NCBI GenBank assembly: GCA_964016885.1
Contig: OZ024740.1
Span: 404,612,001-404,676,000, forward strand
Source: Eledone cirrhosa
Taxonomy: Eukaryota
Length of the DNA: 64,000 nucleotides
Direction of reading: 5' to 3'
Shown here: piece after piece, positions 2,234 through 64,000 of the stretch
How positions within the stretch are numbered: the first letter of the stretch is position 1
Layout: each line of letters opens with the position of its first letter
Notes under the pieces: model-generated
What the model was told of the DNA's origin: nothing
Seen by the model: only the letters and a program-made list of their open reading frames with translations
The model's database searches: none
Translations under genes and position numbers: made by a program

Positions 2234-2658
2234 CATAAAAATTCCCATTCATTTTTTTTTAATGATTAAATATGCAATCATATTTTTGGAGCCTGGTATG
2301 GGTGGCACCGCTACAAGGAGGAACAGGCTAGTTGGCCGTGCCCTTCGTACTCTTCGGGTACCCCATGGCACCGCTATGAGGAGGGACTGGCAAGTTGGCC
2401 ACGGCAAACCCACCTTATGGGAGAACTATAGTTTTAGAGCCTGGTACTGGGTGACACCATTACAAAGAGGAACGGGCCAGTTAGCCACACCGAATCCCCC
2501 TCACAACGTAACCACAGTCATGATATTCCTCCTCCATACACACTATTCACTTTCTTGACATTTGTACATTATTCTATGTACTATACATCCACCCATGACA
2601 AGTTGTAGTGCACCTGAGCACTGTACACAATAATTTCGTTATTATTATTATTATATAT

Positions 2659-5777: not shown

Positions 5778-6519
5778 ATATATATATATATATATAAACA
5801 AATACATACATACATAAACAAATACATACATACATAAACAAATACATACATACATAAACAAATACATACATATATATATGTATGCGGTCGTTTTATATTC
5901 TTGATAATTCTAATTTATTTCAATATTGCTAGGGACTTGGCTCCTTGAAACACATACACACAAACACAAAAGTGTAGCCAATCTAAGAACGCTAGTTAAA
6001 AATAACCATTACATACACACACATCTACACAAACATACACAGACTCAGAGAAAATAATTATTATATGCACACATATATGTGTGTGTGAGCATATGTATAC
6101 ATTTATGTGTATGAGTAACACAGGTTAATGAAGCAGATGAGTTACCTGTCTTTGCGTGACGTGCAAAAACACAAGAGCATTATAGCATTATATATTAGTA
6201 TATATATATATATATATATATACTTGCACCAAATATAAATAAACCTGTTACGAGGTACGAATCTCAGAATTTGTCAACTCTTATTAATGGTCAGTCCACT
6301 TCTACGAAATGTAATGTAAAAATACCATTTTCTTCTTGTCTCCCCACCCTTCGGTTCATTCATCCATATATCTGTATAATCGCCCAGAATCCAATCCTAC
6401 TTTCTCAATGCTATTCTATAATTCTGTCTGGCTGTTCTAAATAATCTTGTGTATTTTAAAATCCCAGTATATCGCTTGTTACTGTTTATTGCTTTATTTA
6501 AAACCTTCTCCTCGCTAAC

Positions 6520-7092
6520 TACCCCATATCCCTCCCGCCCGTCCCCACTCTCCACCATTATTATTTGGACCAATCATAAGTCAGCGGCCTATGCTATCAC
6601 TTCTCCTGTTTGCTTTTCGATATGATGGATGGACTAAGGAATTTCTGGAGAGTCTGAAGAATCTGGACACTCGGAGACAATGCCAAAGAAAACGACAAAT
6701 TCACCTCATGCTGCCGGACAAAAGGGCAAGGACTCCTCCTTTTTGTTTCGGCCGCGGATGGCCAACATAACCCCAACCCCATCCCCCGCGCCCCACCCAC
6801 CAAACGCAATCCAAAACTTCGGAGTTGGTACCATGAATGTAGGCACCACGAGGTTGTAGAAATGCTTGAACATAAGGAGGTTGATGTTTGCTGTATCCAA
6901 GAGACCAGGTGGAGGGGCAGGTCTGCTAGATTCATTGTGGGTAAAAAACGATGCTATAAGCTTTTCTGGGTGGGAAATGACAATGGGCTGGGTTGGGTAG
7001 GAATCATGTTAGCAGAAAAATGGGTGGATAAGATAATAGACGTAAATAGAGTGAATGACAGAATAATTGTGTGTCATATATATGTGTGTGTC

Positions 7093-7123
<31 letters not shown>

Positions 7124-8687
7124 TAAGACTTGTTCTAAATAGAACTACTGTGACAGTAATATCTGTGTACACACCCCAATCCGGACTGCCTGGCGCTATA
7201 AAAGACAGATTCTATGAGACACTGATGCTCACTACCTCCCAAATAACCGACAGTGACTATATAATTATTGCTGGCGACCTAAATGGTCACGTTGGACAAC
7301 ATTGTGACGGCTATGACGGAATCCATGGAGGCTATGGGTTTGGTACTAGAAATGAGGAAGGCTCCAGAATCCTGGAATTCTGTGACGCAAATAACCTAAC
7401 TATCTGTAACACTAACTTCAAAAAAATGAGACAATCACTTGATCACCTACAGATCAGGGGAACATACCAGCCAGGTAGATTATATCCTTACCAGAAGACG
7501 TGATAGATTGTCTGTTGTAAACACTAAATCCCTCCCCCATGAAGAATGCACCTCCCAACATAGACTGATAATTAGCGACCTAATAGTCAGGACGAGACGT
7601 ACTAGACAACAGAAGAGGACTATCCTCAGGAGAAAAATATGGAAGCTAAAGGACCCCACAGCCAGTAATAAATTTAAAAGCATATTACTTGATGCTTTCG
7701 ACAGTAAGGAAGAGCAATTAGAGTCGTACAATATAGAGGAACAGTGGGAATTCCTGAAAGCAAACCTCCTGATGGCGGCAGATGAAGTCTGTGGCTGGAG
7801 CAGGCCTATAGGCAGGAGGAGAGTAACGTGGTGGTGGAACAGTAAGGTGGAGGAGTCAATTAAGGCCAAAAAGCAGGTTTGGAAAGTATGGCGGGATGGG
7901 GGAAGTAGAGAAGACTATCAAGTGGCCAGGAGGGAAGCTAGGAGACAAGTGTACTTCGCAAGAAGGGAAGCAGAGGAAAGAAAGTTCAAGCATGTTCTAC
8001 AACGCAAGGACCAAAAACGTGAGGTGTTCAGGATTGCTAGGCAATGTGTCAAGGAAATGTCACTGGACCGAGATCTTTGGCGCTACACAGTAATACAGAA
8101 GACCCGCCTTACCTAAGAAAGACGACAGCTGTATAAAAAAGTGCAGGGCAATAAAAATAGACAGTAGCCACGGAGTAGGCAGACCTAGAAAAACCTGGGA
8201 CGACTTGATAAATTCCGACCTCACACACTTACACCTCTCCAAGACAATGTCACTGGACCGAGATCTTTGGCGCTACACAGTAATAGAGAAGACCCGCCTT
8301 ACCTAAATAGAAGGTAAAACCTACTACAGTCAGTAGGCACCTCTAACAAAAATACACCCCCGTCCCACTACCCCCACCCCATCCACACCACCTCTTTCAA
8401 TGTAAAGTTATGTTGGTACCACAACATCCAGTCCGAAACAAATGCGGTTGTGTAGGTGTCACGACAAAAAAACACACAGTCCACGCTGTAATGTGGCCGT
8501 GTAGGTTTCACGGTAAAAACCTCCCAGTCCACACGGTAAACGTGGTTGGTGTTAGGAAGGGCATCCAGCCGTAGAAAACCCGCCAGACAGTCCTATGCGA
8601 GCAAGACAACCACTCTTGCCTCAAGTGGGAAAACTCCCGTCCAAACCCATGCAAGCGTGGAAGATGGACGTTAAACGATGATGATGA
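6520..8687 (+). mobile_element. RTE-type LINE subfamily A with 5' region and AP endonuclease, RT deleted, rearranged 3' end
   Basis: APE motifs CIQETRW, AGDLNGHVG, QVDYIL, SQHRL; at about 8057 the sequence jumps to the ORF terminus; same 3'UTR and tail as the other copies; 5' boundary uncertain. Confidence 0.9.
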
Positions 8688-19792: not shown

Positions 19793-20720
19793 AAACTCTG
19801 AGAGGGCTCTGTAGAAACAGTAGACAGCTTCTGCTACCTAGGTGACCGAATTAGCAGCGGAGGTGGGTGTTCGGAAAGTACAATAACTAGGGTAAGAACG
19901 GGATGGAAGAAATTCAGGGAGCTACTGCCACTGCTAGCTGCAAAAGGCTTTTCCCTCAAAATGAAAGGCAGACTGTATGATGCGTGTATACGAAGAGCAA
20001 TGTTACATGGTAGTGAAACCTGGGTGTCGTGTGTAGAAGACTTGCGTAGATTAGAAAGAAACGAAGCCTGCAAGCTCTGATGGATGTGTAATAGTAATAT
20101 ACATGAACGGCAAAGCATAAATGAATTGAGAGAGAGACTGAGCATAAGAGGAATCAAATGTTGTGTGCAGGAGAGGTGGTTACGTTGGTATGGACATGTG
20201 ATGCGTATGAAGGATGACAGCTGCATAAAACGGTGCAGAGCACTAGAAGTCGATAGAAACCGCGGAGTGGGGAGACCCAAGAAGACCTGGCATAAGGTGA
20301 TAAAAGCTGATCTTTCCCAATTACACTCTCAAAAGCAATGAATGACACACGACCGTGACCTCTGGCGTCACGCAGTAATACAGAAGACCCGACCCTCCCA
20401 TGAGTACAAGCCGAAGCTGAAGCATATAGACAATATGCCCCCACACCCTCCCACTGCAAAGTGGTCGTGAAGGTGCCACGGCAAAAAAGCGCCCAGCCCA
20501 CACTGTAAAGTGAACGTGTAGGCGCTACGGAAAAAAAGCACCCAACACTCACTGTAAATGAGGTTGGTGTTAGAAACGGCATCCAGCTGTAGAAATCAAA
20601 CCAGATTCAGTTCCCCTATGAGCAAGACAAGGTCAGCCGACTGGACACTGCCCACAACAGGACAACCCGTCTAACCCATGCTAGCGTGGAAGAATGGACG
20701 TAAAACAGTGATGATGATGA
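19793..20720 (+). mobile_element. RTE-type LINE subfamily B, 3' fragment
   Basis: ETVDSFCYLGDRISSGGG...GSETW...LRWYGHVMRM...GRPKKTW; near-identical to 50461-51396; tail AAACAGTGATGATGAT. Confidence 0.92.
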
Positions 20721-21049: not shown

Positions 21050-21323
21050 TTGAGGGTAGTAGTGCTGGTGCCACAATAAAAAACACCAAGTACATCCTGT
21101 AAGGTGGTAGTGCTGGTGCCTCAATAAAATGGTCCCAGTACAAATTGTAAAGTGGTTGGTGTTAGGAATGGCATCCAGCAGTAGAAACCAAGCTGAGAGC
21201 GGAGCATAAATAAAGGGAGTAGTCATCTGACTGGAGTAGATTCAGTGCACTATGGCCTGTTTAACCCATGCAAGCAAAGAAAAATAGACATTAAACAGTG
21301 ATGATGATGATGATGATGATGAT
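21050..21323 (+). mobile_element. Diverged LINE 3'UTR/tail fragment
   Basis: TGGTTGGTGTTAGGAATGGCATCCAGC...AACCCATGCAAGC...TTAAACAG(TGA)n. Confidence 0.75.
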
Positions 21324-24629: not shown

Positions 24630-25978
24630 GGAGTTCAAGACCGGCTGCCCATGGGAACTCCTATACGCAGATGATCTAACGCTCATAGCTGAATCAATGG
24701 TCGAGCTAGAGAAGAAATTCCAAACATGGAAGCACGGCCTAGAATCAAAAGGCCTTAAAATTAACCTGGCTAAGACTAAAGTTCTAGTTTGTAAGAAAGA
24801 AAATAAGGCAGCGGTCCCCTCCGGGAAGTGGCCATGCGCAGAGTGTAGGAAAGGCGTAGGTAGAAATTCCATTTTGTGTCCCAAATGCAAAGTTTGGGTG
24901 CATAAAAGATGTAGTGGGATCACAGGTAAGCTAAGAACATAGATTTTACATGTGGCTGGTGTTCTGGGGCAATAAGTAGCAGCAAGTGCCCACAAAATAC
25001 TAGCTCTTTCAACTGCGCAGAGGGTTCTATAGAAATAGTGGACAGCTTCCGTTACCTGGGTGACAAAATCAGCAGTGGGGGAGGGTGCTCTGAAAGTACA
25101 GTAGCTAGAGTCAGAACTGGGTGGAAAAAGTTCAGAGAGCTTATACCACTATTAGCCGCTAAAGGGTTCTCCCTAAAAATGAAAGGCAGGTTGTACGATG
25201 CCTGCATACGAACAGCAATGTTACATGGCAGTGAGACCTGGGCATTGTGTGCAGAGGATATACGCAGACTAGAGAGAAACGAAGCTTGCATGCTACGCTG
25301 GATGTGTAATAGTAATATACGTGAACGACAAAGCATAAACGAACTAAGGAAAAAATTAGAAATAAGAGGGATCAGATGTTGTTTACTAGAGAGAAGGCTA
25401 CGTTGGTATGGTCACGTGATGCGCATGAAGGACGATAGCTGTATAACAAAGTGCAGGGCAATAAAGATAGACGGTAGCCACGGAATAGGCAGACCCAGAA
25501 AAACCTGGGACGAATTGATAAACTCCGACCTCACACCTCACCAAGACAATGTCACTGGACCTTTGGCGGTACTCAGTAATAGAGAAGACCCGCCTTACCT
25601 AAATACAAAGTAAAACCTACTACAGTCAGTAGGCATCTCTAACAAAATACACCCCCGTCCCACCACCACCACTCCCTTCTATGTAAAGTTATGTTGGTGC
25701 CACACCATCCAGGCCGAAACAAATGAGATCGTGTAGGTGTCACGACAAAAAAACACACAGTCCACGCTGTAATGTGGCCGTGTAGGCAACACGGTAAAAA
25801 CCTCCCAGACCCACACTGTAAATGTGGTTGGTGTTAGGAAGGGCATCCAACTGTAGAAAACCTGCCAGACAGTCCTATGCGAGCAAGACAATCACTCTTG
25901 CCTCAAGTGGGAAAACCCCCGTCCAAACCCATGCAAGCGTGGAACACGGACGTTAAACGATGATGATGATGATGATGA
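24630..25978 (+). mobile_element. RTE-type LINE subfamily A, 5'-truncated
   Basis: ORFs 24628-24942 (LLYADD, PHD) and 25038-25613; 3'UTR and (GAT)n tail. Confidence 0.95.
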
Positions 25979-29946: not shown

Positions 29947-32441
29947 TTTCAAATAATTAAATACACAAAACTATTGTTGAATCATCAGTATACGATTGTC
30001 TTTAAAATATTACTGTATGTGTCAAATGACAATCAATATATAATAAACATTTCTTATACTAGCATCTGGCAACAGATGTTTAAATATTTTACAGAAAGGA
30101 AGTATTTCCAATAAAAAGATTTCTCATGCAACATGTTATCGTTTTAAATATATGTAAGTGAAAAAAAAATAGAAATAAAAATAACACAATATCCTAGTCA
30201 CCATTAAGAGTTTAATGTCAGTTGTTTCTACACTACTCTAGTAGGGATACAACCTTACAACAGGTTTCTTTTGTCGTTCTGTAACATCTGTTACCTCACC
30301 TATGATATCCGATATTTGTTTAGATCTAATCTAATTTTCCCAACTCTACTTCACCGTATCAATCATCACAATTGATTTTAAGTCTGTTTTTTCATACTCA
30401 TATAGGTTAAACTAATCCTCTCCAGTACAGCAACAAACCACTTTTTTTTTTTCCTTTGTCATTTTCTTTATGAGGCTCAGTTTCCTGAGATCAGTTTTTA
30501 CCACTTCTGCCCACATCTTTCATGATCTTCTTTCCCGAATTCCTTCTACTTAGAATTCCAAACACTTCAGCCAACTATCACCATTCTTACTCATTACATG
30601 AGCTGACTAAGGCTATCTCTCCTGCAAACTACATATGATTCCTCTTATACCAGGTTTTCCTCTCATTTCATCTGTGCTTTATCAATCATGCATATTGATA
30701 TTAGAGAAGTCACCTCCAATGCTAATTATGTCACCAAGATAAGAGAAACTATCAACTCCCATGGAACTTTCCCTGGATTGGAGAAAGTTTATTTCATTGA
30801 CGTTATTGCTACTATCCCTGTGCATCTGCCACATTCATGGAATCTATTATCAGATCCTAACAGTTTTTTCACACAAAATATGTTATACCAACATAAATTT
30901 AAAGATTCATCAGCCAATATCTATAATATTATTATTATTTTCTACATTGGAATGACATTTCTGTGGTTGTAATAGTGAAATTTATTTATAGCAAACAGTA
31001 TGAGATGTTTTGTAGTACTCTGTGCTGGCTGTTGTTGATTAGCCCTAATTAATCTTTGTCCTAATTGAGCAAACCTATAATCAAAGACATTCTAGCTATC
31101 ACTATCCGAGCTATATTTTTTCAAACAGTGTATTTTGAACTATGTTATTAAATATCCTTGTTTCTCTGTTTTTGTTGTTGTTTTTTTTAGATAGTAAAAT
31201 GCAATATGAGGGAAGCTTGGCTGTTATTTCTAGCTGAGATTGTTTTTTTTAAATTTAGGCACACGGCTAGCAATTTTAGAGGACAGGAAAGCCAATCAAA
31301 TTGACTGGGTACTTAACTGGTACTTTATTTTATCAACCTCAGAAGGATGAAAGGTAACATTGACTTTGGCAGCATTTTAATCTTGGGGCCCGTGTTCACA
31401 TACATACATACAAACACACACACAAATACATATGCATCATCATCATTAACAGCATTTAATGTCTGCTTTCCAATACTAGCTAGGGTTGGATGGGTTTATA
31501 TAGACCAAGTCAGTACAGATGCGGGACTACTCACCTCCCAGACAGAAGGGTCTGTATCTCACATATGGTCATATGTCCTATTGTGTGTACAGAAGTTGTT
31601 GTGTCTTATGACACAAACTGAAGGGTTGTCCCAGCCCCTTGTTTGGCAAACTTTTTATGGCTGGATGCCCTTCCTAACACCAACTGCTTTACAGTGTGTA
31701 CTGGGTGCATTTATCATGTAGATCACCAACACTAGGGTAGCTAGATTTATATATATATATACATCCTTGTATACTGTAAGAAGTGATTAAAATGGTTACT
31801 TCCAAGAATTGCATCCAGCTGTAAAACATTGCCTCAAAATATCCCGTTCAACCCATGCTGGCATGGAAAAGTCAACATAAAAACGACAATGATGATATAT
31901 ATATGGTGCCACAACAAAATGCACCCAGTCAACCCTGTAAGGTGAAATCACCCAGTACACCCTGTAATGTGGTCATATTGGTGTCATGATAAAATGCACC
32001 CAGTACACCTTGTAAGGCAGTAATGCTGGTGCCATGAAAAAAATTCCCAGTACACACTGTAAGGTGGTTGACATTACAAAGGGCTGCCAGCCATAGAAAA
32101 CCAAGCCCAAAATGGAGCATATAGGCAAGACATGGTCACTTCACCTGTCTGGCCTTATAATATAACAGCTCATGTAACCTATATGCAAACATGGAAAATG
32201 GCCATTAAACAGTGATAATGGTGATGATTATGAACGCATATATATGTCTGTCTGCTAATTGTGAGTATACTGCACAACAGCTGTGTCAGGATACATCTGG
32301 AAATTTCCTAGCAACGTAGCTCTCTCACAGGTTAGATAATGATCTGCTAATGCCTATAACTGCATTATATTCACCAAAACATTTTTACATTACAAATTGT
32401 ACATAAAGTGAAGAAAATAGTTTCTGAAGGAAAATACTTAC

Positions 32442-32969: not shown

Positions 32970-34101
32970 TCATCATCATCATCATCAACGTTTAACGTCC
33001 GTGTTCCACGCTTGCATGGGTTTGGACGGGGGTAGTCCCACTTGAGGCAAGAGTGATTGTCTTGCTCGCATAGGACTGTCTGGCAGGTTTTCTACAGTTG
33101 GATGCCCTTCCTAACACCAACCACATTTACAGTGTGGGTCTGGGAGGTTTTTACCGTGTTGCCTACACGGCCACATTACAGCGTGGACTGTGTGTTTTTT
33201 TTGTCGTGACACCTACACGATCTCATTTGTTTCGACCTGGATGGTGTGGCACCAACATAACTTTACATAGAACGGGGTGGTGTGGATGGGGTGGTGGTGG
33301 TGGGACAGGGGGGGGGGGGTATTTTTGTTAGAGATACCTACTGGCTGTAGTAGGTTTTACTATGTATTTAGGTAAGGCGGGTCTTCTCTGTTACTGAGTA
33401 CCGCCAAAGGTCTCGGTCCAGTGACATTGTCTTGGAGAGGTGTAAGTGTGTGAGGTCGGAGTTTATCAGCTCGTCCCAGGTTTTTCTAGGTCTGCCTATT
33501 CCGTGGCTACCGTCTATCTTTATTGCCCTGCACTTTGTTATACAGCTATCGACTTTCATGTGCATCACGTGTCCATACCAACGTAGCCTTCTCTCGAGTA
33601 AACGACATCTGATCCCTCTTATTTCTAATTTTTTCCTTAGTTCGTTTATGCTTTGCCGTTCACGTATATTACTGTTACACATCCAGCGGAGCATGCAAGC
33701 TTCGTTCCTCTCTAGTCTGCGTATATCCTCTGCACACAATGCCCAGGTCTCACTGCCATGCAACATTGCTGTCGTATGCAGGCATCGTACAACCTGCCTT
33801 TCATTTTTAGGGAGAACCCTTTAGCAGCTAATAGTGGTATAAGCTCTCTGAACTTTTTCCAACCAGTTCTGACTCTAGCTACTGTACTTTCAGAGCACCC
33901 TCCCCCACTGCTGATTTTATCACCCAGGTAACGGAAACTGTCCACTATTTCTATAGAACCCTCTGCGCAATTGAAAGAGCTAGTATTTTGTGGGCACTTG
34001 CTGCTACTTATTGCACCAGAGCACCGGCCACATGTAAAATCTATGTTCTTAGTTAGCTTACCTGTGATCCCATTACATCTTTTATGCACCCATACTTTGC
34101 A
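32970..34101 (-). mobile_element. RTE-type LINE subfamily A, 5'-truncated
   Basis: ORFs 33712-34089 and 33368-33766; near-identical to 3065-4180. Confidence 0.95.
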
Positions 34102-38603: not shown

Positions 38604-39447
38604 ATTATAAGTATATACATATATTTGTATCTTTGGAATAGCCATAGGTTCTCCCTTAGGAGCCATATTCATGACATTCTATCTAGCCTCAAGAGAAAAC
38701 AAATACTAAAACACAAACATATAATATACACCAAATATGTGGTGATATACTGATTGTAATAAATTCACTGGAAGACATTGAAACTTGCAGTTGATATGCG
38801 AAGGATGGAGAGAAATGAAGCAAGAATGCTTCAATGGATGTGTGATATTAATATGCTTAAATGACAAAGCATCGATGAAATGGGAGGAAAACTGGGTATA
38901 AGAAGCAGAGTGCAAGAGAGAAGACTCTACTGGTATAGAGATGTAATGCAAATGGTGGGTGATGAGAACTGGGTGAAGAAATGCCAGTGGAAGGAAGCCA
39001 CAGTAAAAGAAGACCAAGAGGTGGTGAGAGGTGTTATTATGAAAACACATACAGTAAACTGATACACACGCACATATATATATATATTTACATATACAAC
39101 CAGATTCTTTTACAGTTTCTATCTCCCAAATTCACTTACAAAGCATTGGTTGGCTTGAAACTATAGAAGACTTTTGCCCTAGGTACTGCAGTGGGATGGA
39201 GCCAAAAACTATGCATTAAGACAGTATTTTATAACTGGATGCCATTCCTGGTACCAACTCTTACTAATTGTTGGACTGCTTTACATTGACTGCATTGCAT
39301 TGACACCACTTGAAAAATGTCAAGTGGTGCTAATGCAAAGCAAAGACATGCATAAACAAGCACATACAACATATCATCATCATCATCATCGTTTAACGTC
39401 CATCTTCCACGCTAACAAGGGTTAGATGGTATATGTATATATATATC

Positions 39448-40668
39448 GTTTGTAGGAAAGAAAATAAGGCGCCGGTCCCTTCCGGGAAATGGCCATGCTC
39501 AGTGTGTAGGAAAGGCGTAGGTAGAAACTCCATTTTATGTCCCAAATGCAAAATATGGGTGCATAAAAGATGTAGTGGGATCACAGGTAAGCTAACTAAG
39601 AACATAGATTTTACATGTGGCCGGTGCTCTGGTGCAATAAGTAGCAGCAAGTGCCCACAAAATACTAGCTCTTTCAATTGCGCAGAGGGTTCTATAGAAA
39701 TAGTGGACAGCTTCAGTTACCTGGGTGATAAAATCAGCAGTGGGGGAGGGTGCTCTGAAAGTACAGTAGCTAGAGTCAGAACTGGGTGGAAAAAGTTCAG
39801 AGAGCTTATACCACTATTAGCCGCTAAAGGGTTCTCCCTAAAAATGAAAGGCAGGTTGTACGATGCCTGCATACGAACAGCAATGTTGCATGGCAGTGAG
39901 ACCTGGGCATTGTGTGCAGAGGATATACACAGACTAGAGAGAAACGAAGCTTGCATGCTCCGCTGGATGTGTAATAGTAATATACGCGAACGGCAAAGCA
40001 TAAACGAACTAAGGGAAAAATTAGAAATAAGAGGGATCAGATGTTGTTTACTCGAGAGAAGGCTACGTTGGTATGGTCACGTGATGCGCATGAAAGACGA
40101 CAGCTGTATAAAAAAGTGCAGAGCAATAAAGATAGACGGTAGCCACGGAGTAGGCAGACCCAGAAAAACCTGGGACGACCTGATAAATTCCGACCTCACA
40201 CACTTACACCTCTCCAAGACAATGTCACTGGACCGAGATCTTCGGCGGTACTCAGTAATAGAGAAGACCCGCCTTACCTAAATACATAGTAAAACCTACT
40301 ACAGTCAGTAGGCATCTCTAACAAAATACACACCCGTCCCACCACCCCCGTCCCATCCACACCGCCCCTTTCAATGTAAAGTTATGTCGGTGCCACAACA
40401 TCCAGGCCGAAACAAATGAGATCGTGTAGGTGTCACGACAAAAAAACACACAGTCCACGCTGTAATGTGGCCGTGTAGGCAACAAGGTAAAAACCTCCCA
40501 GTCCCACACTGTAAATGTGGTTGGTGTTAGGAAGGGCATCCAGCTGTAGAAAACCCGCCAGACAGTCCTATGCGAGCAAGACAACCACTCTTGCCTCAAG
40601 TGGGAAAACTCCCGTCCAAACCCATGCAAGCGTGGAATATGGACGTTAAACGATGATGATGATGATGA
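39448..40668 (+). mobile_element. RTE-type LINE subfamily A, 5'-truncated, reading frame still open
   Basis: ORF 39433-40281 runs from the PHD finger to the natural stop (KTRLT*); 3'UTR and tail present. Confidence 0.95.
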
Positions 40669-41619: not shown

Positions 41620-42040
41620 TCACTCACGTCCCCCACTCAAGATCTACCTCTCCAATCCCCATGCACCTCCCCTACCCAAGACCACATTGTAAAGTAGTCA
41701 TGTTGGTGTCACAACAAAAAGTGCCCAGTTCACACTAAAGTGGTTGTTTAGGTGTCACAACAAAAAGTGCCCAGTTCACATTGTAAAGTGGTTGTTTAGG
41801 TGTCACAACAAAAAGTGCCGTCCACACTGTAAAGCGGTCATTTTGGTGGATTAATAAAAAGCACCCACTACACACTGTAAATGTGGTTGGTGTTAGAAAG
41901 GGCATCCAACCATAAAAACCAAACCAAAGTCAGTTCTGTATGAGCCATACAATGTCACCTGATCTGACTTGTCTCACAAATGGAACAATTCGTCTAACCT
42001 ATGCTTGTGTGGAAAAATGGATATTAAATGGTGATGATGA
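41620..42040 (+). mobile_element. Diverged LINE 3'UTR with about five ~47-bp units
   Basis: CACA(C/T)TGTAAAGTGGTTGTTTAGGTGTCACAACAAAAAGTGCCCAG repeats, then the conserved tail. Confidence 0.8.
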
Positions 42041-49040: not shown

Positions 49041-49429
49041 CACAAATATAAGAAAATCGTTTATTTTATTTATTTATTTATTTCATATACAAGTAAATCA
49101 TACAATTTATTTTGTCATCAAAAGTATATAAGAATTTATTAGATGTATATCATTTTCCCCATTGAAAATTGATCTCTTCCGATCTGATTACATCTGTTTG
49201 TGGGCAGAATTGGCCTGCAGTATCAGTTTCGATGACACAGTTTGACAGTAAGCAAAACTTTGTTAGGTGTAGTGGCCTCAGCTTCTGCTTAACTTCAGGA
49301 TTCACCAGCTAATCTTTCCTCAATCATCTCCTACTATGCACACATTTATGTAATGTGGTGTGTGGACGCAAGATGGTGTGGGCTGTTTGGGTTGATGATG
49401 GCTTCAGTATTCAGCTTATCAATGTCAGG

Positions 49430-51396
49430 GAAGCATGTTTTGCAACGTGAGGACCAGAAACAGGAGGTGTTCAAGATTGCAAGGCAGTGTGTCAGAGAGA
49501 ATTGTGATGTCATTGGAGAGAAGTGTATCCGGAATGATAAAGGTGAGCTTCCCCTCACAAGTGCTGAGAAGAAAGATGTGTGGAAGAGCCATTATGATAG
49601 ATTACTAAATGAGGAGAATGCATGGGAAGAAGAGACCCTACCCCAAGTAGACCCTATAGAGGAGCCAGCAGTACAAATCAGCAGCAGCGTAGTAAGTAAG
49701 GCAATCAAAGATATGAAGACTGGGAAAGCAACCAGTCCATCGGGTATAGCTGCCGAGATGCTGAAGGCATCTGGGTCGGTAGGTCACACCATAACCACAC
49801 GAATTGTTAACCAGGTAATACTAGGTGTCATACCAAAGGATTGGTGCAGTAGCATCATTGTCAACTGCTACAAAGGTAAAGGTGATGCACTAGATAGAAG
49901 AAACTATAGAGGTATAAAGCTGATGGACCAGGTCATGAAAGTAGCAGAAAGAGTTATAGCACAGTTGATTAGGGACTGGGTGAAACTAGACAAGATACAA
50001 TTTGGGTTTGTACCAGAAAGAGGCACCACTGATGTCCTCTTCCTTGTGATGCAGTTACAGGAAAAGTAGCTAGTTAAAAGTAAGCCGCTCTACCTGGCAT
50101 TCGTCGATCTCGAGAAAGCCTTTGACAGAGTTCCCCGTGCTATAATCTGGTGGTCTCTTAGAAAACCAGGAGTAGATGAAATTCCAAACTTGGAGAAGAA
50201 ATGAGAAGAAATTCCAAACTTGGAAGCAGGGACTAGAGAGAAAGGGTCTCAGGGTCAACCTGACAAAGACTAAGGTCCTTGTAAGTAGATGAGAAAACAG
50301 AACCCAGATCCCCTCAGGGAAATGGCCTTGCTCAGTATGTAGGAAAGGTGTAGGTAGGAACTCCATTCTCTGCCTCAAATGCAAACAATGGGTACCCGAG
50401 ATGTAGCGGGATCTCAAGAAGCTTAACTAAGAATGTAGGCTTCAGGAAGCAAGTACCACCAAACTCTGGGAGGGCTCTGTAGAAACAGTAGACAGCTTCT
50501 GCTACCTAGGTGACCGAATTAGCAGCGGAGGTGGGCGTTCGGAAAGTACAATAACTAGGGTAAGAACGGGATGGAAGAAGTTCAGGGAGCTACTGCCACT
50601 GCTAGCTGCAAAAGGCTTTTCCCTCAAAATGAAAGGCAGACTGTATGATGCGTGTATACGAACAGCAATGTTAGATGGTAGTGAAACCTGGGTGCTGTCT
50701 TTGGAAGACTTGCGTAGATTAGAAAGAAACAAAGCCTGCATGCTCCGATGGATGTGTAATAGTAATATATGCGAACGGCAAAGCATAAATGAATTGAGAG
50801 AGACACTGAGCATAAAAGGAATCAAATGCTGTGTGCAGGAGAGGCGGTTGCGTTGGTATGGACATGTGATGCGTATGAAGGATGACAGTTGGATAAAAAG
50901 GTGCAGAGCACTAGAAGTCGATGGAAACCGTGGAGTGGGGAGACCCAAGAAGACCTGGGATGAGGTGATAAAAGCCGACCTTACCCAATTACACCTCTCA
51001 AAGGCGAAGGCACACGACCGTGACCTCTGGCGTCACGCAGTAATACAGAAGACCCGAACCCCCACGGGTACAAGCCAAAGCTGAAGCATATAGACAATAT
51101 GCCCCCACACCCTCCCACCACAAAGTGGTCATGGAGGTGCCATGGCAAAAAAGCACCCAGCCCACACTGTAAGGTGGGCGTGTAGGCGCCACGAAAAAAA
51201 AGCACCCAGCACTCACTGTAAATGAGGTTGGTGTTAGGAAGGGCATCCAGCTGTAGAAATGAGGCCAGAATGAGTTCCCGTATGAGCAAGGCATGGTCAG
51301 CCGATTGGACACTGCCAACAACAGGACAACCCATCTAACCCATGCTAGCGTGAAAGGACGGACGTAAAACAGTGATGATGATGATGATGATGATGA
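49430..51396 (+). mobile_element. RTE-type LINE subfamily B, 5'-truncated with internal deletions
   Basis: ORFs 49353-50069 and 50629-51084; FVDLEKAFDRV present; the QG-YADD segment is deleted near 50180; partial PHD; (GAT)n tail. Confidence 0.93.
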
Positions 51397-52006
51397 CTTC
51401 GACCAGCACAGGGATCAAATCTTCCTTCAACCAATACCATCTTGCTTGCTGTACAACTGCCTTGAAACCAAACAACAATACATGGCTCAGTGTATAACAA
51501 GCACACTTCTCAACAACAAATGCCCATCCATGCATCTTGGCCTCTGCATGTGCGAACCACATAAATGCTATTAAGGAACTACTGATAACATGCACCCACT
51601 ACACTCTGTAAAGTGGTATTGCTGGTCCCATGGTAAAATGCATCCAGTACACACTGTGAAGTGGTAGTGATGGTGCCATGATAAAATGCACCTAGTCCAC
51701 TCTGTAAGGTAGTTAGCATTGGGAAGGACATCTGGCTGTAGAAATCATACCAAAAATGGAACATGAGCAAGTTGTTCTCCTGTCTAGTCTCAGACTGTGA
51801 CAACCATGCCAGCACAAATGATAATGATGTCTATAACAATAACTATACCAATACTAATATAACTAATTCCTTAGGATTATTGATTTTTACATTTGATTGC
51901 ACTGGATGGAAACAACTATAAAGGTGACCATTTCATAGATAATCAATAAATCCAATAAAAAATTATAAAATCTTATATCAGTGTTCAATAATAATAATAA
52001 TAATAA

Positions 52007-55657: not shown

Positions 55658-58099
55658 TGTACAGCCACCGGAAATAACATCTGTGAAATAAACAGCTCCA
55701 TCTATCTGCTTAGCTAGCTACCTCACCGTGAAACAAACAACCCTTAAAGCCCCCAAAATAAAACGCCTATACAGCAGCTAAACATCAAACGATTATTTTT
55801 GTATAAATAGAATGATTCCAAACACTTTCGCCAGACGACCTTTGGCAAAGTCAGCTCACGTATCGTTGTTCCTCCTCTGCCACACCTCTCACTCACACAC
55901 GCCTTGTACCTCTGTATCGTCACTTCATGTGAAAAAAATAGCTGACCGAAACTACATCTCTCGCCTTGCTCGTCCTTTCAACTTGTGCTTTCGTCTGTTC
56001 ATCCTTACCGTATGAGACAACAGTCCTTTTAAGGGCTACCCTCAGATCCGATCAGACCGTATGCGATAACAGTCCTTTTAAGGGCTATTCTCGGATCTGA
56101 TCAGAAGTAGTGACCAGACTGACTAACCACGTCGCTACAATTGGTGACCCCGACGTGATTCGAACATGCAACCAGACAGCAGCCTAACAAGATACCAACA
56201 TGGACATGTCACAACCAACGACAGAGGTCGAAATTTCAGAGCTGCGAGCTATGATCAGAGAGCGGGCTGGTCTAATTAAAGCCCTCTCAAATCGAGTAGA
56301 GAACCTGACCTTTCAAACACACCAGCAACGCAGCAATAGTCGATCCAGGCCTTTTCACAGTCGAAGATCCAGAAGTCCCAGTAAAAATCGTGTCTGGCAA
56401 CCTCTGCTGGTATCACGCAGAATTCGGCGCACAGGCATCTAAGTGCAAGGCCCCGTGCTCTTTCCAGAATACCAGCCAGGGCCTAGCGACGACCTTCATC
56501 CCTGGTACTGAGAAGAAAAGTCGTCTATTTTTTATCAACGACCAAACGACAGGCATCCGTTACCTCGTGGATACAGGAGCCCAGGTTAGTGTTATTCCTG
56601 TTTCACTAATCTCGGGCAAAAGACATCCAACACCGTCCTTTCTGCAGGCAGTGAACCGATCGTCAATTCTGACTTTCGGGTAGAAATCACTGACCCTCAA
56701 TTTAGGCCTGAGGCGTCATTTTCAATGGGTGTTCGTCGTGGCAGACCTGCTGACCCCTATCTTAGGAGCCGATTTTCTCCACCACTTCAACCTTCTGGTG
56801 GACATGAAGAACCGGAGGCTTATTGACACCACCACAAACTTCACTGTGAGAGGTGTATTTACCATGCAATCCACAGTGAGCCCTGTAATTTGCCAGTCAG
56901 AGCCTTCGCGTTACAACAGCATTCTCCAGAAATCACTCGCCCGGTATTTAAGGATGGACCTATTAAGCATAGTGTCACACATCACATCGAGACAAGAGGA
57001 CCACCCACAGCTGCCCAACCAAGGAGACTGCCTCCAGACCGATGGAGAATCGCTAAACAGGAGTTTCAACACATGCTGGACCTCAGAATCATTCGCTCTT
57101 CCTCCAGCAACTGGTCTGCACCCCTACACCTTGTTCCTAAAAAAGCCGAGAATGATTGGCGACCATGTGGGAATTATCGTGCACTCAACAATTCTACAGT
57201 ACCCGATAATTACCCTGTACCTCACTTGCACGACTTTTCTGCCTCTCTGCAAGGCGCATGCATCTTTTCCAAGATAGATTTGGTACGTGCATATAACAAG
57301 ATACCTATGGAGCCTGCAGATATTCCGAAGACAGCAATCACAACACCGTTCGGTTTATTTGAATTCCTGTGAATGCCGTTCGGTCTGCGCAATGCTGCAC
57401 AAACTTTTCAGCAATTTATTGACACCGTGTTACGTGATCTACCCTTTGTATACGCATATATCGACGGTGTGCTAGTAGCAAGTACTTCCGAGCAAGAACA
57501 CGAGAAGCACTTAGATCTTCTTTTCCAACGTTTGGCCGAGTACGGTATTATCATCAACCCCAGCAAGTGCCTTCTCGGCGTTCCTTCACTGTCCTTTCTC
57601 AGGCACATCATTGATAAAGACGGCATTCGTCCACTTCCTGAGAAAGTAGAAGCTATCCGCAATTTTCCCGCACCTACATCACTTCGGAAACTGCGTGAAT
57701 TCCTCGGTTTGGTGAATTTCTATAGGCGTTTCATCCCTCATTGTGCCAACACAGCCAGACTCCTCACAGACCTTCTTTGTAACCGGACTCGGAAAAACGA
57801 AGAGATCACTCTGAACGAGGAAGAATTATCACCTTTTAACCGCCTGAAGGAAATGTTGGCAAACGCTTCCATGCTCGTTTTCCCCAGATCTGGCGCTCCT
57901 CTTTCGCTGCTAGTGGACGCGTCAGACACGGGGGTTGGAGGCGTTTTACAACAACATGTCGACGGCGTTTGGCAACCCTTATCCTTCTTTTCTAAGCGGT
58001 TGCAACCTGCAGAAACCAAATACAGTACGTTTGGCCGCGAACTCTTGGCAACCTACCTGATCAGAAGTAGTGACCAGACTGATTAACCATGTCGCTACA
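55658..58099 (+). mobile_element. Defective Ty3/Gypsy LTR retrotransposon, CsRn1-like
   Basis: 5' LTR ends ...GCTACA at 56139 (start TGTA at about 55658 is uncertain); tRNA-Trp PBS at 56142; Gag CWYH...KCKAPC (CHCC) motif; protease LVDTGA; [13 protein letters not shown] and PFGLRNA with degenerate YIDG; RNase H VDAS; stops at 56681 and 57370; no integrase; 43-bp 3' LTR remnant. Confidence 0.92.
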
Positions 58100-58439: not shown

Positions 58440-58941
58440 CCCTATACCTATGTCCCCAAGCATCTTCCCCACCCCACTCAAGTTCCCAACCAACACCATA
58501 GAATGGTTCCCCTGGAGCCACGACAAAAGTGCCCAACCCACACTATAAAGTGGTAGTGTAGGTATCACAAGAAAAATGTCCAGTCCACACTTTAAAGTGG
58601 TTGTGTAGGTGTCACGACAAAAAGCGCCCAAACCACACTGTAAAATGATCATGTAGGATTCATGACAAAAAGTGCCTAGCCCACACTGTAAAATGGTCAT
58701 ATGGCAACACGACAAAAAATTTCCAGCCCACACTGTAAAGTTGTCATGTAGGTGTCACAACAAAAAGCACCCAACACACTGTAAATATGGCTGGCATTAG
58801 GGAGGGCATCCAGCCATAGAAACCAAGCTAAAATCAGTTCTGGGTGAGTGAAACACGGTCCTCTGATCTGATATCTCACAAAGAGACAGCCCATCCTACC
58901 CATGCTAGCATGGAAAATTAATGTTAAATGATGATGATGAT
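58440..58941 (+). mobile_element. Diverged LINE 3'UTR with about six ~47-bp units
   Basis: CACT anchors at 58541, 58588, 58636, 58684, 58731 and 58777; conserved tail CCCATGCTAGCATGG...GTTAAATGATGAT. Confidence 0.82.
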
Positions 58942-60440: not shown

Positions 60441-61234
60441 GAAGTGCAACTTTCCCAGTGAGCAGAAAAGCACTGAAGATGACATCATAGCGAGAGTCCC
60501 CATCATCAATAATGACGGGGACGAGAATAACAAATAAAACATTCAGGGATATAGTGTACCTATTCTAAACTAGAAAACCTATTCTAAACACTCAGTCACA
60601 GACACAAATATACTAACACATACTTTCAATAAGATAAATTTAAAGAATTCAAAGAAATTAATGATAATAGGCTAGGCATCATCATTTAGTGAATAGAAAC
60701 AGTTCAAAAGAGGAATAAATTGGTTTGTAATGATCAAGAAGAATAGCCTACCATTTCAAGAAAAATTCTTTGAAGTGAAAAAGAAAAAGGAATTCTTTTT
60801 GCCAAAGACATATGTCTGAAATGTTAGACATTTTCTCTTTTTTATAATATACTCATTTACTGCACTTTAAAACTGTTTACACCAAAGATTTACCCTATTT
60901 AGCAATTTCATATCCAATGACAGCTCCTCAAAAGCATAGTTAAAGAATTAGTTTATATATCAAGCTGACATGTCAAAGTCATTAACTACTTCTATATGTA
61001 AAGAGGAATGTAATTAAGAAATTGAAAGTATTAAAAAAAAAGAAAAAATACAGAAGAAAACTAATAATTATAGGACCAGAGACTTATAAAAAATCATCAA
61101 TAACTGACTTCCAATAGAGGAAGTAGAAGTGTGTCAATTACCAAGACAAAACTTTTTAACATGTTGCAATATATGTGTATATATATATATATATAGTTAA
61201 AAGAATAGAGGTGTAACACACAAGTTATTATATA

Positions 61235-61725
61235 TTGGTAAACGGAATAGAAAATGCTGACAAATTGTTCACAGTTGAAAAATGGTTTAATTAGGAATAA
61301 AAGAGTATTAGTAATTGTATGGGTTAGTATTCAGTTGTGGTTTTAAGTTTTTAAGTTTTTACCGGTTGCGCATTTCTAAATGCTTTTCAAAAATAATTTT
61401 GAGATCGAGTGTCCGTGTTGTTTGCTCTGATCTGATTAGTTTTGGGAATTCTACCTGTTTTTATGTTAAAAAAGTGGCTCCAGCGCTACTTTGGTATTGC
61501 AAAAATTCTTGTGGTCAAAACAATTTTGATTGGTCGGTAGAGGTCATGTGAATGTAAAAAATTGATTTTGCGCCAAGACTGTTTTTATGTTAAAAAAGTG
61601 GCTCCAGCGCTACTTGGTGTTTGCAAAAATTCTTGTGGTCAAAACAATTTTGATTGGTCGGTAGAGGTCATGTGAATAAAAAATTGGTTTTGCGCCAAGA
61701 TTGAGAAATGACTCTTTCACAACAA

Positions 61726-61769
<44 letters not shown>

Positions 61770-62956
61770 TAGTAGTAAGGTGTTCGATGTTGTGATAATG
61801 GTTAGCAGGGATGTGTGTCAAATGGCTATTAAGATAAGTGTGTGTGTGTGTGTATATAGCAGAGTAATTCGTGGTAGCAGGGATGGTCAGTAAGAATGTG
61901 TCTGTAAGCAATGGGGGGTATTTTAGCATGTCAAAAGATATTTTTCAGCTTTTGTCTTATACGGAGAAGTGCGTGTGTGTGTGTGTATAAGTCTCTTTGT
62001 ATGTTAATGTACGCGTGTGTATGTGTGTGTGTATATATGTGTGTGTGTGTGTGGGTGGACCAGTATTTTTTTCCCCCTGGTAAAATGGTGTACATTATTC
62101 GAATAATGTACACCATTTTACCAGGGGGAAAAAAATACTGGTCCACCCACACACACACACACATATATACACACACACATACACACGCGTACATTAACAT
62201 ACAAAGAGACTTATACATACACACACACGCACTTCTCCGTATAAGACAAAAGCTGAAAAATATCTTTTGACATGCTAAAATACCCCCCATTGCTTACAGA
62301 CACATTCTTACTGACCATCCCTGCTACCACGAATTACTCTGCTATATACACACACACACACACACACACGCACACTTATCTTAATAGCCATTTGACACAC
62401 ATCCCTGCTAACCATTATCACAACATCGAACACCTTACTACTACTACACACACACACACACACACATATTTGTTGTGAAAGAGTCATTTCTCAATCTTGG
62501 CGCAAAACCAATTTTTTATTCACATGACCTCTACCGACCAATCAAAATTGTTTTGACCACAAGAATTTTTGCAAACACCAAGTAGCGCTGGAGCCACTTT
62601 TTTAACATAAAAACAGTCTTGGCGCAAAATCAATTTTTTACATTCACATGACCTCTACCGACCAATCAAAATTGTTTTGACCACAAGAATTTTTGCAACA
62701 CCAAAGTAGTGCTGGAGCCACTTTTTTAACATAAAAACAGGTAGAATTCCCAAAACTAATCAGATCAGAGCAAACAACACGGACACTCTATCTCAAAATT
62801 ATTTTTGAAAAGCATTTAGAAATGCGCAACCGGTAAAAACTTAAAAACTTAAAACCACAACTGAATACTAACCCATACAATTACTAATACTCTTTTATTC
62901 CTAATTAAACCATTTTTCAACTGTGAACAATTTGTCAGCATTTTCTATTCCGTTTA

Positions 62957-62960
<4 letters not shown>
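61235..62960. repeat. 1.7-kb spacer-less palindrome (foldback-like element) between TA runs
   Basis: Arms 61235-62100 and 62101-62960 are reverse complements; centre ...GTACATTATTC|GAATAATGTAC...; ends TATA-TTGGTAAACGG and CCGTTTACCAA-TATA. Confidence 0.95.
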
Positions 62961-63003
<43 letters not shown>

Positions 63004-63090
63004 TCCATTTTGACGCTATAGTCACATATATTATGGAATACTGTTGGCTTCTTGCTACAATAATTTCTATACTTTTCATTTATATATATA

Positions 63091-63617
63091 CTAGCAGTAA
63101 AGCCCAGCATTGCTCGGGGTCACTCAGTAGCTGTGTTAAAGTTACAATGTTAAGTTTCTTTTTTGGCTTAAAAACTGTAGTGTCTACTGTGCAGACTTGC
63201 ATGTGGTGTTTTTGATTAATATTCCCTCAACCAACAATATGCCTTATGAAGTTAAGAAAACATAACGATAACCCGAATGTTATAACAAAAGAGGATGCTG
63301 GGGATAAAAACTGCACTGGTTATTTATTAACAAAGATCGAAAATGTAAACACTGCAACGCAGAGAAAAACAACGTAAGACGCTCAATGTAAACAGACCAA
63401 AGGGAAATAACTCGTCACTTACGCTCAAAAATCGATACATTAGATTCGATTTTGTCACATAGGGTGGGTCAATTTGAAATATTCTTTTTCCGATGTCTTC
63501 GCTAGGGCTCAATGTACAAGTATAGCAATTTCGGTGCAATTCCGTCAGAGATTCTAAGAGGAGATGTGTGCCAAAAATCGATAGACAGACATACAACCAC
63601 AGCTTTATATATATAGA
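63091..63617 (-). mobile_element. Non-autonomous Helitron
   Basis: Minus strand starts A|TCTATATATATAAAGC, has a 3' hairpin CCCGAGCAATGCTGGG and ends CTAG|T; inserted in an AT dinucleotide with no TSD or TIR. Confidence 0.8.
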
Positions 63618-64000
63618 TAGATATATATATTACTGTTACATTATGCAATAAAACTAAAGTGAATATAACAGCATGTGTGTGATTTAAATGACTATCATGG
63701 CTTTTCCACAATGTAATTATATAGAGTATATATCCTGTTTATAATAGTTTTATAGTTTTCCAGGCCATAGCAGAGGAGTTTAAGACTGGCTGTCCGTGGG
63801 AACTTCTAGTTCCCATAGCTAAATCTGTCAAAGAATTAGAAAAGAAATCCCAAACTTAAAATCTAAACCTGTAATTAAAAGGTCTTAAAGTAAACCTACC
63901 AAAGAGAAATGGTTTAGTTAAACAGGAATCATCTGTCATCTGAGAAGTGACCATGCTTAATATGCAGAAAATATGCAGGCAGGAATTCCATATGAGGTAC

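What the first reader, a model, noticed from the sequence alone, without database searches (positions are those of the whole stretch)
61235..62960. 1.7-kb palindrome with zero spacer, internal direct repeats and TA-run flanks
Seen: two ~860-bp arms meet directly at TTC|GAA (62100/62101). Each arm has two ~122-bp tandem units (61457-61700 and mirror) containing GATTGGTCGGTAGAGGTCATGTGA. The arms differ in (TG)n lengths and in a few substitutions (GATCGAGTG vs GATAGAGTG; CAGCGCTAC vs CAGCACTAC), so they are not a simple copy of one molecule. No credible coding sequence. Known: long spacer-less palindromes extrude cruciforms and are usually unstable. Inference: a foldback or non-autonomous DNA element with TA target preference, or the product of a replicated hairpin end; if transcribed it would form a perfect hairpin RNA (siRNA or ADAR substrate). 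The ends match no transposon superfamily I recognise.
Basis: partly seen in the sequence, partly recalled or inferred. Interest (0 to 1): 0.72.

Follow-up and report, generated by a model that had tools for sequence, protein, structure and literature searches.

The report
Head-to-head Penelope retrotransposon ends
This palindrome is two shortened tail ends of a very common Penelope-type jumping gene joined head to head inside a TA repeat, a known and ordinary layout for such elements, likely made when two DNA copies started from opposite strands met at the same self-complementary four letters; the parent family also keeps two overlapping genes that are likely joined by a ribosome slip.

Summary
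The palindrome is real as described but is no foldback DNA element. Each arm is the last ~845 nt of the 3' UTR of a high-copy Penelope-like retroelement (RT + GIY-YIG; 4,677 tailless and 3,697 tailed ends). Inverted insertions are this family's norm (51 of 76 tailed ends); 503 other zero-spacer copies centre on GATC at a likely transcription start. This copy's centre is unique and is a natural TCGA of the element. Either arm can be the longer and joints favour microhomology, so two-end priming and end-joining is likelier than fold-back. The four arm differences are private later mutations. No read bridged this centre (inconclusive). The parent family has ORF1 plus a -1-frame RT-EN ORF with an in-phase U UUU UUA in three families 56-58% alike, unlike the textbook single ORF. 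The scan noted both features before on other DNA. Known kind of structure; modest interest.

The parts
61168..61195 (.). left (TA)n target microsatellite
   Evidence: sequence; all 35 arm ends printed lie next to TA runs or the tail
61196..61229 (-). 34-nt 'tail': element sequence that follows the pseudo-LTR end and leads into ORF1 in full-length copies; present on this end only
   Evidence: 3,697 tail-arm joints in the genome; 30-40-bp one-sided tail described in PMC8557442 and PMC3846280 passages
61236..62102 (-). tailed arm: 5'-truncated 3' UTR / pseudo-LTR, last 845 nt of the element in reference coordinates, 3' end facing left
   Evidence: 3' UTR of a full-length copy is 1,132 nt, so the arm stops ~290 nt short of the RT-EN stop codon
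62099..62959 (+). tailless arm: same 845 nt in sense orientation, 3' end facing right
   Evidence: 4,677 tailless ends in (TA)n genome-wide
62099..62102 (.). junction: natural self-complementary TCGA of the element, shared by both arms (4-nt microhomology), at the foot of a small natural hairpin
   Evidence: centre occurs once in the genome; loop-retaining fold-back form 0 matches
62495..62740 (+). two 122-124-bp units, likely tandem upstream promoter modules (E2F-like, E-box, CCAAT; the last unit ends in a TATA-like box); mirror at 61455-61700
   Evidence: motif places (consensus motifs recalled); E2F, CCAAT and TATA boxes recur in the same order in family B, with an E-box further upstream; arrays of 1 unit 45, 2 units 20, unparsed 5 of 70
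62760..62766 (+). initiator-like TCAGATC, likely transcription start at 62762, 32 nt below CATAAAAA; mirror at 61433 on the minus strand; hotspot of palindrome centres in the family
   Evidence: 33 of 112 arm ends fall 189-204 nt from the end; 503 GATC-centred palindromes; strand-switch reads at 62762-62768 in another individual
62805..62835 (+). minimal hammerhead-like motif, U3-A8 core variant with palindromic helix III, but GCAAC where GAAAC is expected; mirror at 61360-61390
   Evidence: GCAAC in all but 1 of the family-A motifs among the 25 commonest forms listed; GAAAC in families B and C; U3-A8 variant described in PMC4209133 passages; no Rfam ribozyme hit
62960..62995 (.). right (AT)18 target microsatellite
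62996..63085 (+). neighbour, not part of the palindrome: ~90-nt 3' stub of another (TA)n-targeting, variably 5'-truncated repeat family

Best explanation
The palindrome is one insertion of two 5'-truncated 3' ends of a Penelope-like retroelement joined head to head in a TA repeat, likely written by two reverse-transcriptase subunits that primed on opposite target strands and whose copies likely annealed at the element's own self-complementary TCGA. Shown: identity of the arms, the one-sided 34-nt tail, the (TA)n target, the TCGA overlap, the family-wide spread of centres. Inferred: (1) the GIY-YIG nicks both strands of (TA)n; (2) one copy starts at the tail end and the other ~40 nt upstream at the pseudo-LTR end, both starts having short TA homology with the target (TAT and ATATATA in the natural sequence); (3) both copies come from the same source locus or RNA; (4) the two 3' ends, being the same sense, can only pair at inverted microhomology, and when both stop at one palindromic 4-mer the product has no spacer; (5) later point and microsatellite mutations made the arms differ by 0.5%. 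The result is a non-coding dead copy with two outward-facing promoter-like regions. Odds: identity about 0.96; two-end priming with microhomology joining about 0.62.
For: Longer copies carry RVT_1 and GIY-YIG above Pfam cut-offs (2 of 2 C-terminally complete frames had both). 51 of 76 tailed ends on the first 70 Mb of C1 have a converging tailless end within 8 kb, 3 direct, 22 none. In 56 parsed inverted copies the tailed arm is longer in 23, shorter in 11, within 35 nt in 22; a tailed cDNA that snaps back cannot give a longer tailless arm. Of 31 joints without inserted bases 23 have >=2 nt microhomology against 13.8% by chance (17 of 25 without the GATC class). Exactly symmetric centres sit on palindromic 4-mers (GATC 6 copies, TCGA here), 503 GATC centres genome-wide. 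Arms agree at three subfamily sites in 49/50, 46/48, 38/40 comparisons (expected discordance 6.5, 20.4, 20.0); 10 locus-private variants in 9 loci lie in both arms, besides 5 in L086. In vitro a Poseidon PLE cuts and extends both strands, is predicted to be a dimer, and starts at two RNA sites separated by the tail (PMC11167929).
Against: No read or contig bridged this centre; the perfect-centre joint was also not called from X1 contigs for the 503-copy GATC class, so the test is weak. Allele agreement between arms is equally expected from snap-back copying, gene conversion, or one source locus active at a time. Microhomology is equally expected from later deletions. 25 of the 56 joints had inserted or unmatched bases and were left out of the microhomology count; the best of 6 references was used, which inflates it a little; 4 loci were not parsed and L095 was dropped as complex. 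None of 21 measured 5' pseudo-LTRs of full-length copies ends near the proposed start at ~198 nt, which a simple 'copy to the RNA 5' end' model would predict. The in vitro element starts at sites without target homology, unlike the short TA homology seen here. PMC3846280 reads such junction palindromes as self-priming on an antisense template.
Confidence: 0.75

Rival explanations
1. Same element, but one cDNA snapped back on itself at the natural hairpin next to the centre (7-bp stem, 6-nt loop), copied itself to the pseudo-LTR end, and the loop was later lost by slippage between the two TCGA words.
For: The hairpin lies immediately 5' of the centre in full-length copies; another copy's tailed arm ends at 843 (L110); arms share haplotype and private variants; self-priming is the reading in PMC3846280.
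Against: The loop-retaining intermediate has 0 matches in the genome; 11 of 56 copies have the tailless arm longer; most centres have no such hairpin and a 4-bp palindrome cannot fold with a zero loop.
Confidence: 0.2
2. A longer inverted insertion lost its middle after integration (cruciform cutting or replication slippage) and was resealed at TCGA.
For: Microhomology and templated junction inserts (L075, L097) also mark repair deletions; long palindromes are unstable (recalled).
Against: Deletions tend to leave asymmetric, spacer-bearing centres (recalled), whereas this one is perfectly symmetric; the family hotspot coincides with an initiator-like site; arms are young (0.5% apart, family mean 0.76%).
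Confidence: 0.12
3. Assembly or library fold-back artefact.
For: No listed contig or read bridges 62100/62101.
Against: Arms differ at 4 private sites, two on each arm, and two repeat lengths; only one end has the tail, as in the family rule; flanks are not mirrored; same-family strand-switch joints occur in raw reads of another individual (17 reads, 2 start places).
Confidence: 0.03
4. A MITE or foldback DNA transposon with TA target.
For: Inverted ends, TA flanks, a recurrent ~390-bp size class.
Against: Partner frame is RT + GIY-YIG, no transposase; ends asymmetric; this centre is unique; the ~390-bp class has varied centres and both subfamily haplotypes, as expected from repeated independent formation.
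Confidence: 0.02

Closest known systems
Inverted-pLTR insertions of endonuclease-bearing Penelope-like elements (Adineta vaga Pen2/Pen2a, PMC3846280; general scheme in PMC8557442)
   Same: 5'-truncated head-to-head copies, one-sided 30-40-bp tail, partial tandems, palindromes at the inverted junction, microhomology joints.
   Different: Here both arms are long (845 nt) and stop at the same base, no target duplication can be read in (TA)n, and the family has thousands of copies.
Neptune / Nematis type EN+ PLEs (definition from PMC8557442 passages)
   Same: C-terminal GIY-YIG with CCHH, CX4CX2C linker, GLKF and DKG motifs, (TA)n targeting.
   Different: Two overlapping frames (436 aa + 784-aa frame in -1) with an in-phase U UUU UUA instead of a single ORF; no stable structure predicted downstream; hammerhead core altered. 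Clade not tested by a tree. The Fig. 1 legend of PMC8557442 allows 'ORF1 separated by a frameshift with a pseudoknot' for some PLE type; the figure itself was not visible.
Poseidon PAc of Anolis carolinensis (PMC11167929)
   Same: Two start sites separated by the tail; AT-rich target; both strands used.
   Different: Single ORF, canonical hammerhead core, starts without target homology; inverted products were not shown in that work (parts read).
U3-A8 minimal hammerheads of Schistosoma PLEs (PMC4209133)
   Same: U3-A8 core, palindromic short helix III, in the pseudo-LTR, often in opposite-strand pairs.
   Different: This family reads GCAAC for GAAAC, so it is likely crippled; only 1 of 112 arm ends lies near its cut site.

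Membership tests
EN+ Penelope-like elements | PLE-type RT | tested here: met
   RVT_1 above cut-off in 3 of 3 RT frames; GLKF and DKG motifs; 2,006 relatives at E<=1e-30
EN+ Penelope-like elements | C-terminal GIY-YIG endonuclease with CCHH | tested here: met
   PF01541 above cut-off in L038 and L031; CSGC...H...H
EN+ Penelope-like elements | pseudo-LTRs as partial tandems or inverted copies | tested here: met
   (5' pseudo-LTRs of 26 to >=900 nt in 21 of 22 full-length copies)
EN+ Penelope-like elements | one-sided 30-40-bp tail | tested here: met
   34 nt, 61196-61229
EN+ Penelope-like elements | hammerhead in the pseudo-LTR | tested here: inconclusive
   U3-A8 minimal motif present but with GCAAC; no Rfam hit; activity untested
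canonical EN+ Penelope-like elements | single ORF | tested here: not met
   ORF1 436 aa + -1-frame ORF2 with in-phase TTTTTTA in 19 of 19 parsed copies of 20 picked for an open ORF1; 11 of 19 have the full 784-aa ORF2; same in families B and C
Neptune / Nematis clades | CX2-5CxxC linker between RT and EN, (TA)n targeting | tested here: met
   CDRPNCGIC
Neptune clade | RT phylogenetic placement | not tested
   no named reference proteins were held as usable sequences
Hydra clade | DKT and RWK motifs, no CCHH, <3 kb | tested here: not met
   DKG, GLKF, CCHH, unit ~4.8 kb (definition)
Naiad / Chlamys | N-terminal GIY-YIG | tested here: not met
   GIY-YIG at residues 691-780 of 784
MITE / foldback DNA transposon | symmetric terminal inverted repeats, fixed internal structure, cognate transposase | tested here: not met
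DIRS retroelements | inverted terminal repeats with extension plus tyrosine recombinase | tested here: not met
   no recombinase domain in the 4 frames scanned

The most novel reading that the evidence does not exclude
The parent lineage is an endonuclease-bearing Penelope-like element with gag-pol-like expression: an abundant all-helical ORF1 protein and a minor ORF1-RT-EN fusion made by -1 frameshifting at U UUU UUA without a downstream stem or pseudoknot; its dimer primes both strands of a (TA)n from one source RNA and the two cDNAs are joined at palindromic 4-mers, seeding the genome with thousands of zero- or short-spacer palindromes that carry two outward-facing E2F/CCAAT/TATA promoters.
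Probability: 0.45. Interest if true: 0.62.

Novelty: new variant of a known kind. Interest (0 to 1): 0.37.

Why it matters
The palindrome itself is an ordinary product of a known retroelement class. The family is useful because it is young and has thousands of copies, so its junctions can be read as a record of the still unresolved second half of Penelope integration (how the inverted copy is made). The conserved slippery site suggests that some endonuclease-bearing Penelope elements dose their enzyme by ribosomal frameshifting, which is directly testable and would amend the single-ORF definition. Hundreds of perfect zero-spacer palindromes persisting in one animal genome also bear on how stable such DNA is.

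Tried and rejected
No RNA holder listed, so transcription, hairpin RNA, splicing and the start site were not tested. Reads on the locus: the first lay skipped the centre as repeat; the narrower lay showed no bridging piece among those listed, 138 not shown; inconclusive. Empty site not observable (microsatellites break contigs). Rfam: only (TG)/(TA)-driven matches below gathering scores, no ribozyme. Intron instead of frameshift at TTTTTTAG: no phase-2 donor-like site in any of three ORF1s, and the divergent 395-545-nt stretch before the site has 0 stops in the ORF1 frame against 3-12 in the others (shuffle P0 0.0004-0.006); rejected as less likely, not excluded. Three family-C copies with fused 1,138-1,181-aa frames owe the fusion to a changed poly-C length downstream, read as mutants. 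ORF1 homology to the N-terminus of single-ORF relatives: not significant (hhalign probability 0.4, E 0.14). ORF1 model: helical residues 7-233, disordered after, mean pLDDT 55.6; no PDB match at E<=0.001; only 2 database homologues in the 239-763-aa range; Atlas gave no answer. Hammerhead-guided truncation: 1 of 112 arm ends near the cut site; rejected for this family. Literature searches for a described frameshift or two-end priming in EN+ PLEs or for such palindromes in octopus: 0 papers, only PMC8557442, nothing relevant in listings; the Terminon paper was not held, and the library lacks most subscription papers, so absence from print is not shown.

Full report
Observation. The inverted repeat is present: arms 61236-62100 and 62101-62959 meet with no spacer. 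A global alignment gives 4 substitutions and two (TG)n length differences. Two 122-124-bp units lie in each arm. The arm has no other copy in the window.

It is one of thousands. The window lies in a 3.0-Gb genome (earlier scan notes call it an octopus, not checked here). The outer 225 bp gave 848 candidates, the 40 scored all about 100% identical. Their flanks show two kinds of end: directly on (TA)n, or after a fixed 34-nt extension. Exact patterns count 4,677 tailless and 3,697 tailed ends (the tailed count includes internal joints of full-length copies).

What the arms belong to. [quoted passage not shown] In full-length copies the tail is the sequence between the 5' pseudo-LTR and ORF1. 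The 3' UTR is 1,132 nt in L055; both window arms are its last 845 nt, hence non-coding. Inverted 5'-truncated copies, a one-sided 30-40-bp tail and (TA)n targets are described for this class (PMC8557442 passages; PMC3846280 passages). So the structure is of a known kind.

How usual is the palindrome? Of 76 tailed ends on the first 70 Mb of C1, 51 have a converging tailless end within 8 kb, 3 a direct one, 22 none. I parsed 56 inverted copies (4 more not parsed, L095 dropped as complex). The tailed arm is longer in 23, shorter in 11, similar in 22. 33 of 112 arm ends fall 189-204 nt from the pseudo-LTR end; six copies are perfect palindromes on GATC, and that centre occurs 503 times in the genome. 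Raw reads of another individual show strand switches there (17 reads from 2 start places). The window's centre occurs once; it is the natural TCGA of the element, shared by both arms.

The hotspot and the 122-bp units. At the hotspot stands TCAGATC (initiator-like, A = 62762) with CATAAAAA at -32, a CCAAT box at -102, an E-box at -118 and an E2F-like word at -143; the second unit repeats these boxes about 123 nt higher (consensus motifs recalled). A second family, 56% alike in the RT frame, has E2F, CCAAT and TATA boxes in the same order, with an E-box further upstream. I read the units as tandem promoter modules and the hotspot as the RNA 5' end; earlier scan notes offered the same reading for other families. 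Against it, none of 21 measured 5' pseudo-LTRs ends near 198, and no RNA run was available. The window arms run past this site, so their template was a longer RNA.

Mechanism. Among 31 joints without extra bases, 23 have at least 2 nt of microhomology against 13.8% by chance (17 of 25 without the GATC class); 25 joints with inserted or unmatched bases were set aside. Arms of one insertion agree at three subfamily sites in 133 of 138 comparisons (about 47 discordant expected; sites are linked) and share 10 locus-private variants in 9 loci, against 53 one-arm variants: both arms come from one source. In the window copy both arms have the same haplotype and each difference is private to one arm, so they arose after insertion; 4 in ~850 nt fits the family mean of 0.76%. 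In vitro, a Poseidon element cuts and extends both target strands, is modelled as a dimer and starts at two RNA sites separated by the tail (PMC11167929, parts 1-2 of 4 read). Two converging copies explain the one-sided tail, either arm being longer, and zero-spacer centres on palindromic 4-mers. Snap-back at the hairpin beside this centre remains possible, but its loop-retaining form has no match in the genome.

Reality of this copy. Private differences on both arms, the tail rule and unmirrored flanks argue against an artefact; a contig matches 60545-61164 without a difference (possibly the source sample). No piece bridged the centre; inconclusive.

Side findings on the parent family. (1) 19 of 19 parsed copies, of 20 chosen for an open N-terminal frame, have ORF1 of 436 aa overlapping a -1-frame RT-EN frame by 70 nt with T TTT TTA in slippery phase; 11 have the full 784-aa second frame. 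Two further families (56-58% identity in ORF2, 27-36% in the ORF1 tail) keep the heptamer in the same phase and a database homologue ends in the same FLD peptide. An intron is less likely. No stable downstream structure was predicted. ORF1 is modelled as long helices then disorder, without a fold match. Canonical EN+ PLEs are described as single-ORF, though the Fig. 1 legend of PMC8557442 mentions an ORF1 separated by a frameshift with a pseudoknot for a type I could not see, and PMC5408684 passages mention esterases in Neptune-like elements; supplement hits showed nothing on this. I found the site before looking up earlier notes, which report it on other DNA. (2) Each arm holds a minimal U3-A8 hammerhead motif (PMC4209133 passages) with GCAAC for GAAAC in this family, probably inactive.

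Verdict. Real in the assembly, explained: a head-to-head 5'-truncated Penelope-like insertion (Neptune/Nematis-type linker, clade untested), ordinary for its family. Interest comes from the junction statistics and the likely frameshift, both already noted by this scan elsewhere. Interest 0.37.

Noticed in passing
window 62996-63085: 3' stub of a second (TA)n-targeting family (1,166 candidates); longer copies are 5'-truncated, form ~630-bp partial tandems and show a CTGATGA...GAAA hammerhead-like stretch by eye; likely another Penelope-like family; no RT frame in 10 loci.
   Followed up: partly
window 63084-63632: High-depth repeat starting TACTAGC and ending in ATAGAT repeats; resembles non-autonomous Helitron-type elements (recalled).
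   Followed up: no
window 1-2234: 46-bp tandem satellite, 48.5 copies, 96% matches, extreme strand skew.
   Followed up: no
window 20452-20558, 21055-21156, 31945-32064, 41683-41889, 51583-51707, 58519-58790: Dispersed short arrays of a related 47-49-bp unit, probably the interior of one non-autonomous repeat family.
   Followed up: no
window 56309-58086: Broken protease-RT-RNase H frames of an LTR-retrotransposon-like copy.
   Followed up: no
window 3748-8116, 24930-25613, 33368-34101, 39397-40281, 49293-51084: Many fragments of one RTE-like LINE family with a cysteine-rich insert in the RT C-terminal region (family name recalled).
   Followed up: no
L038:1520-1600 (3' UTR of full-length copies): The element carries its own (TA)n in the 3' UTR just after the RT-EN stop, a built-in target that could favour tandem self-insertion.
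   Followed up: no
L122, L123 (G000:C1:56.50 and 67.69 Mb): Converging pairs with a tail at both ends (listing), so both copies can start at the tail site.
   Followed up: no
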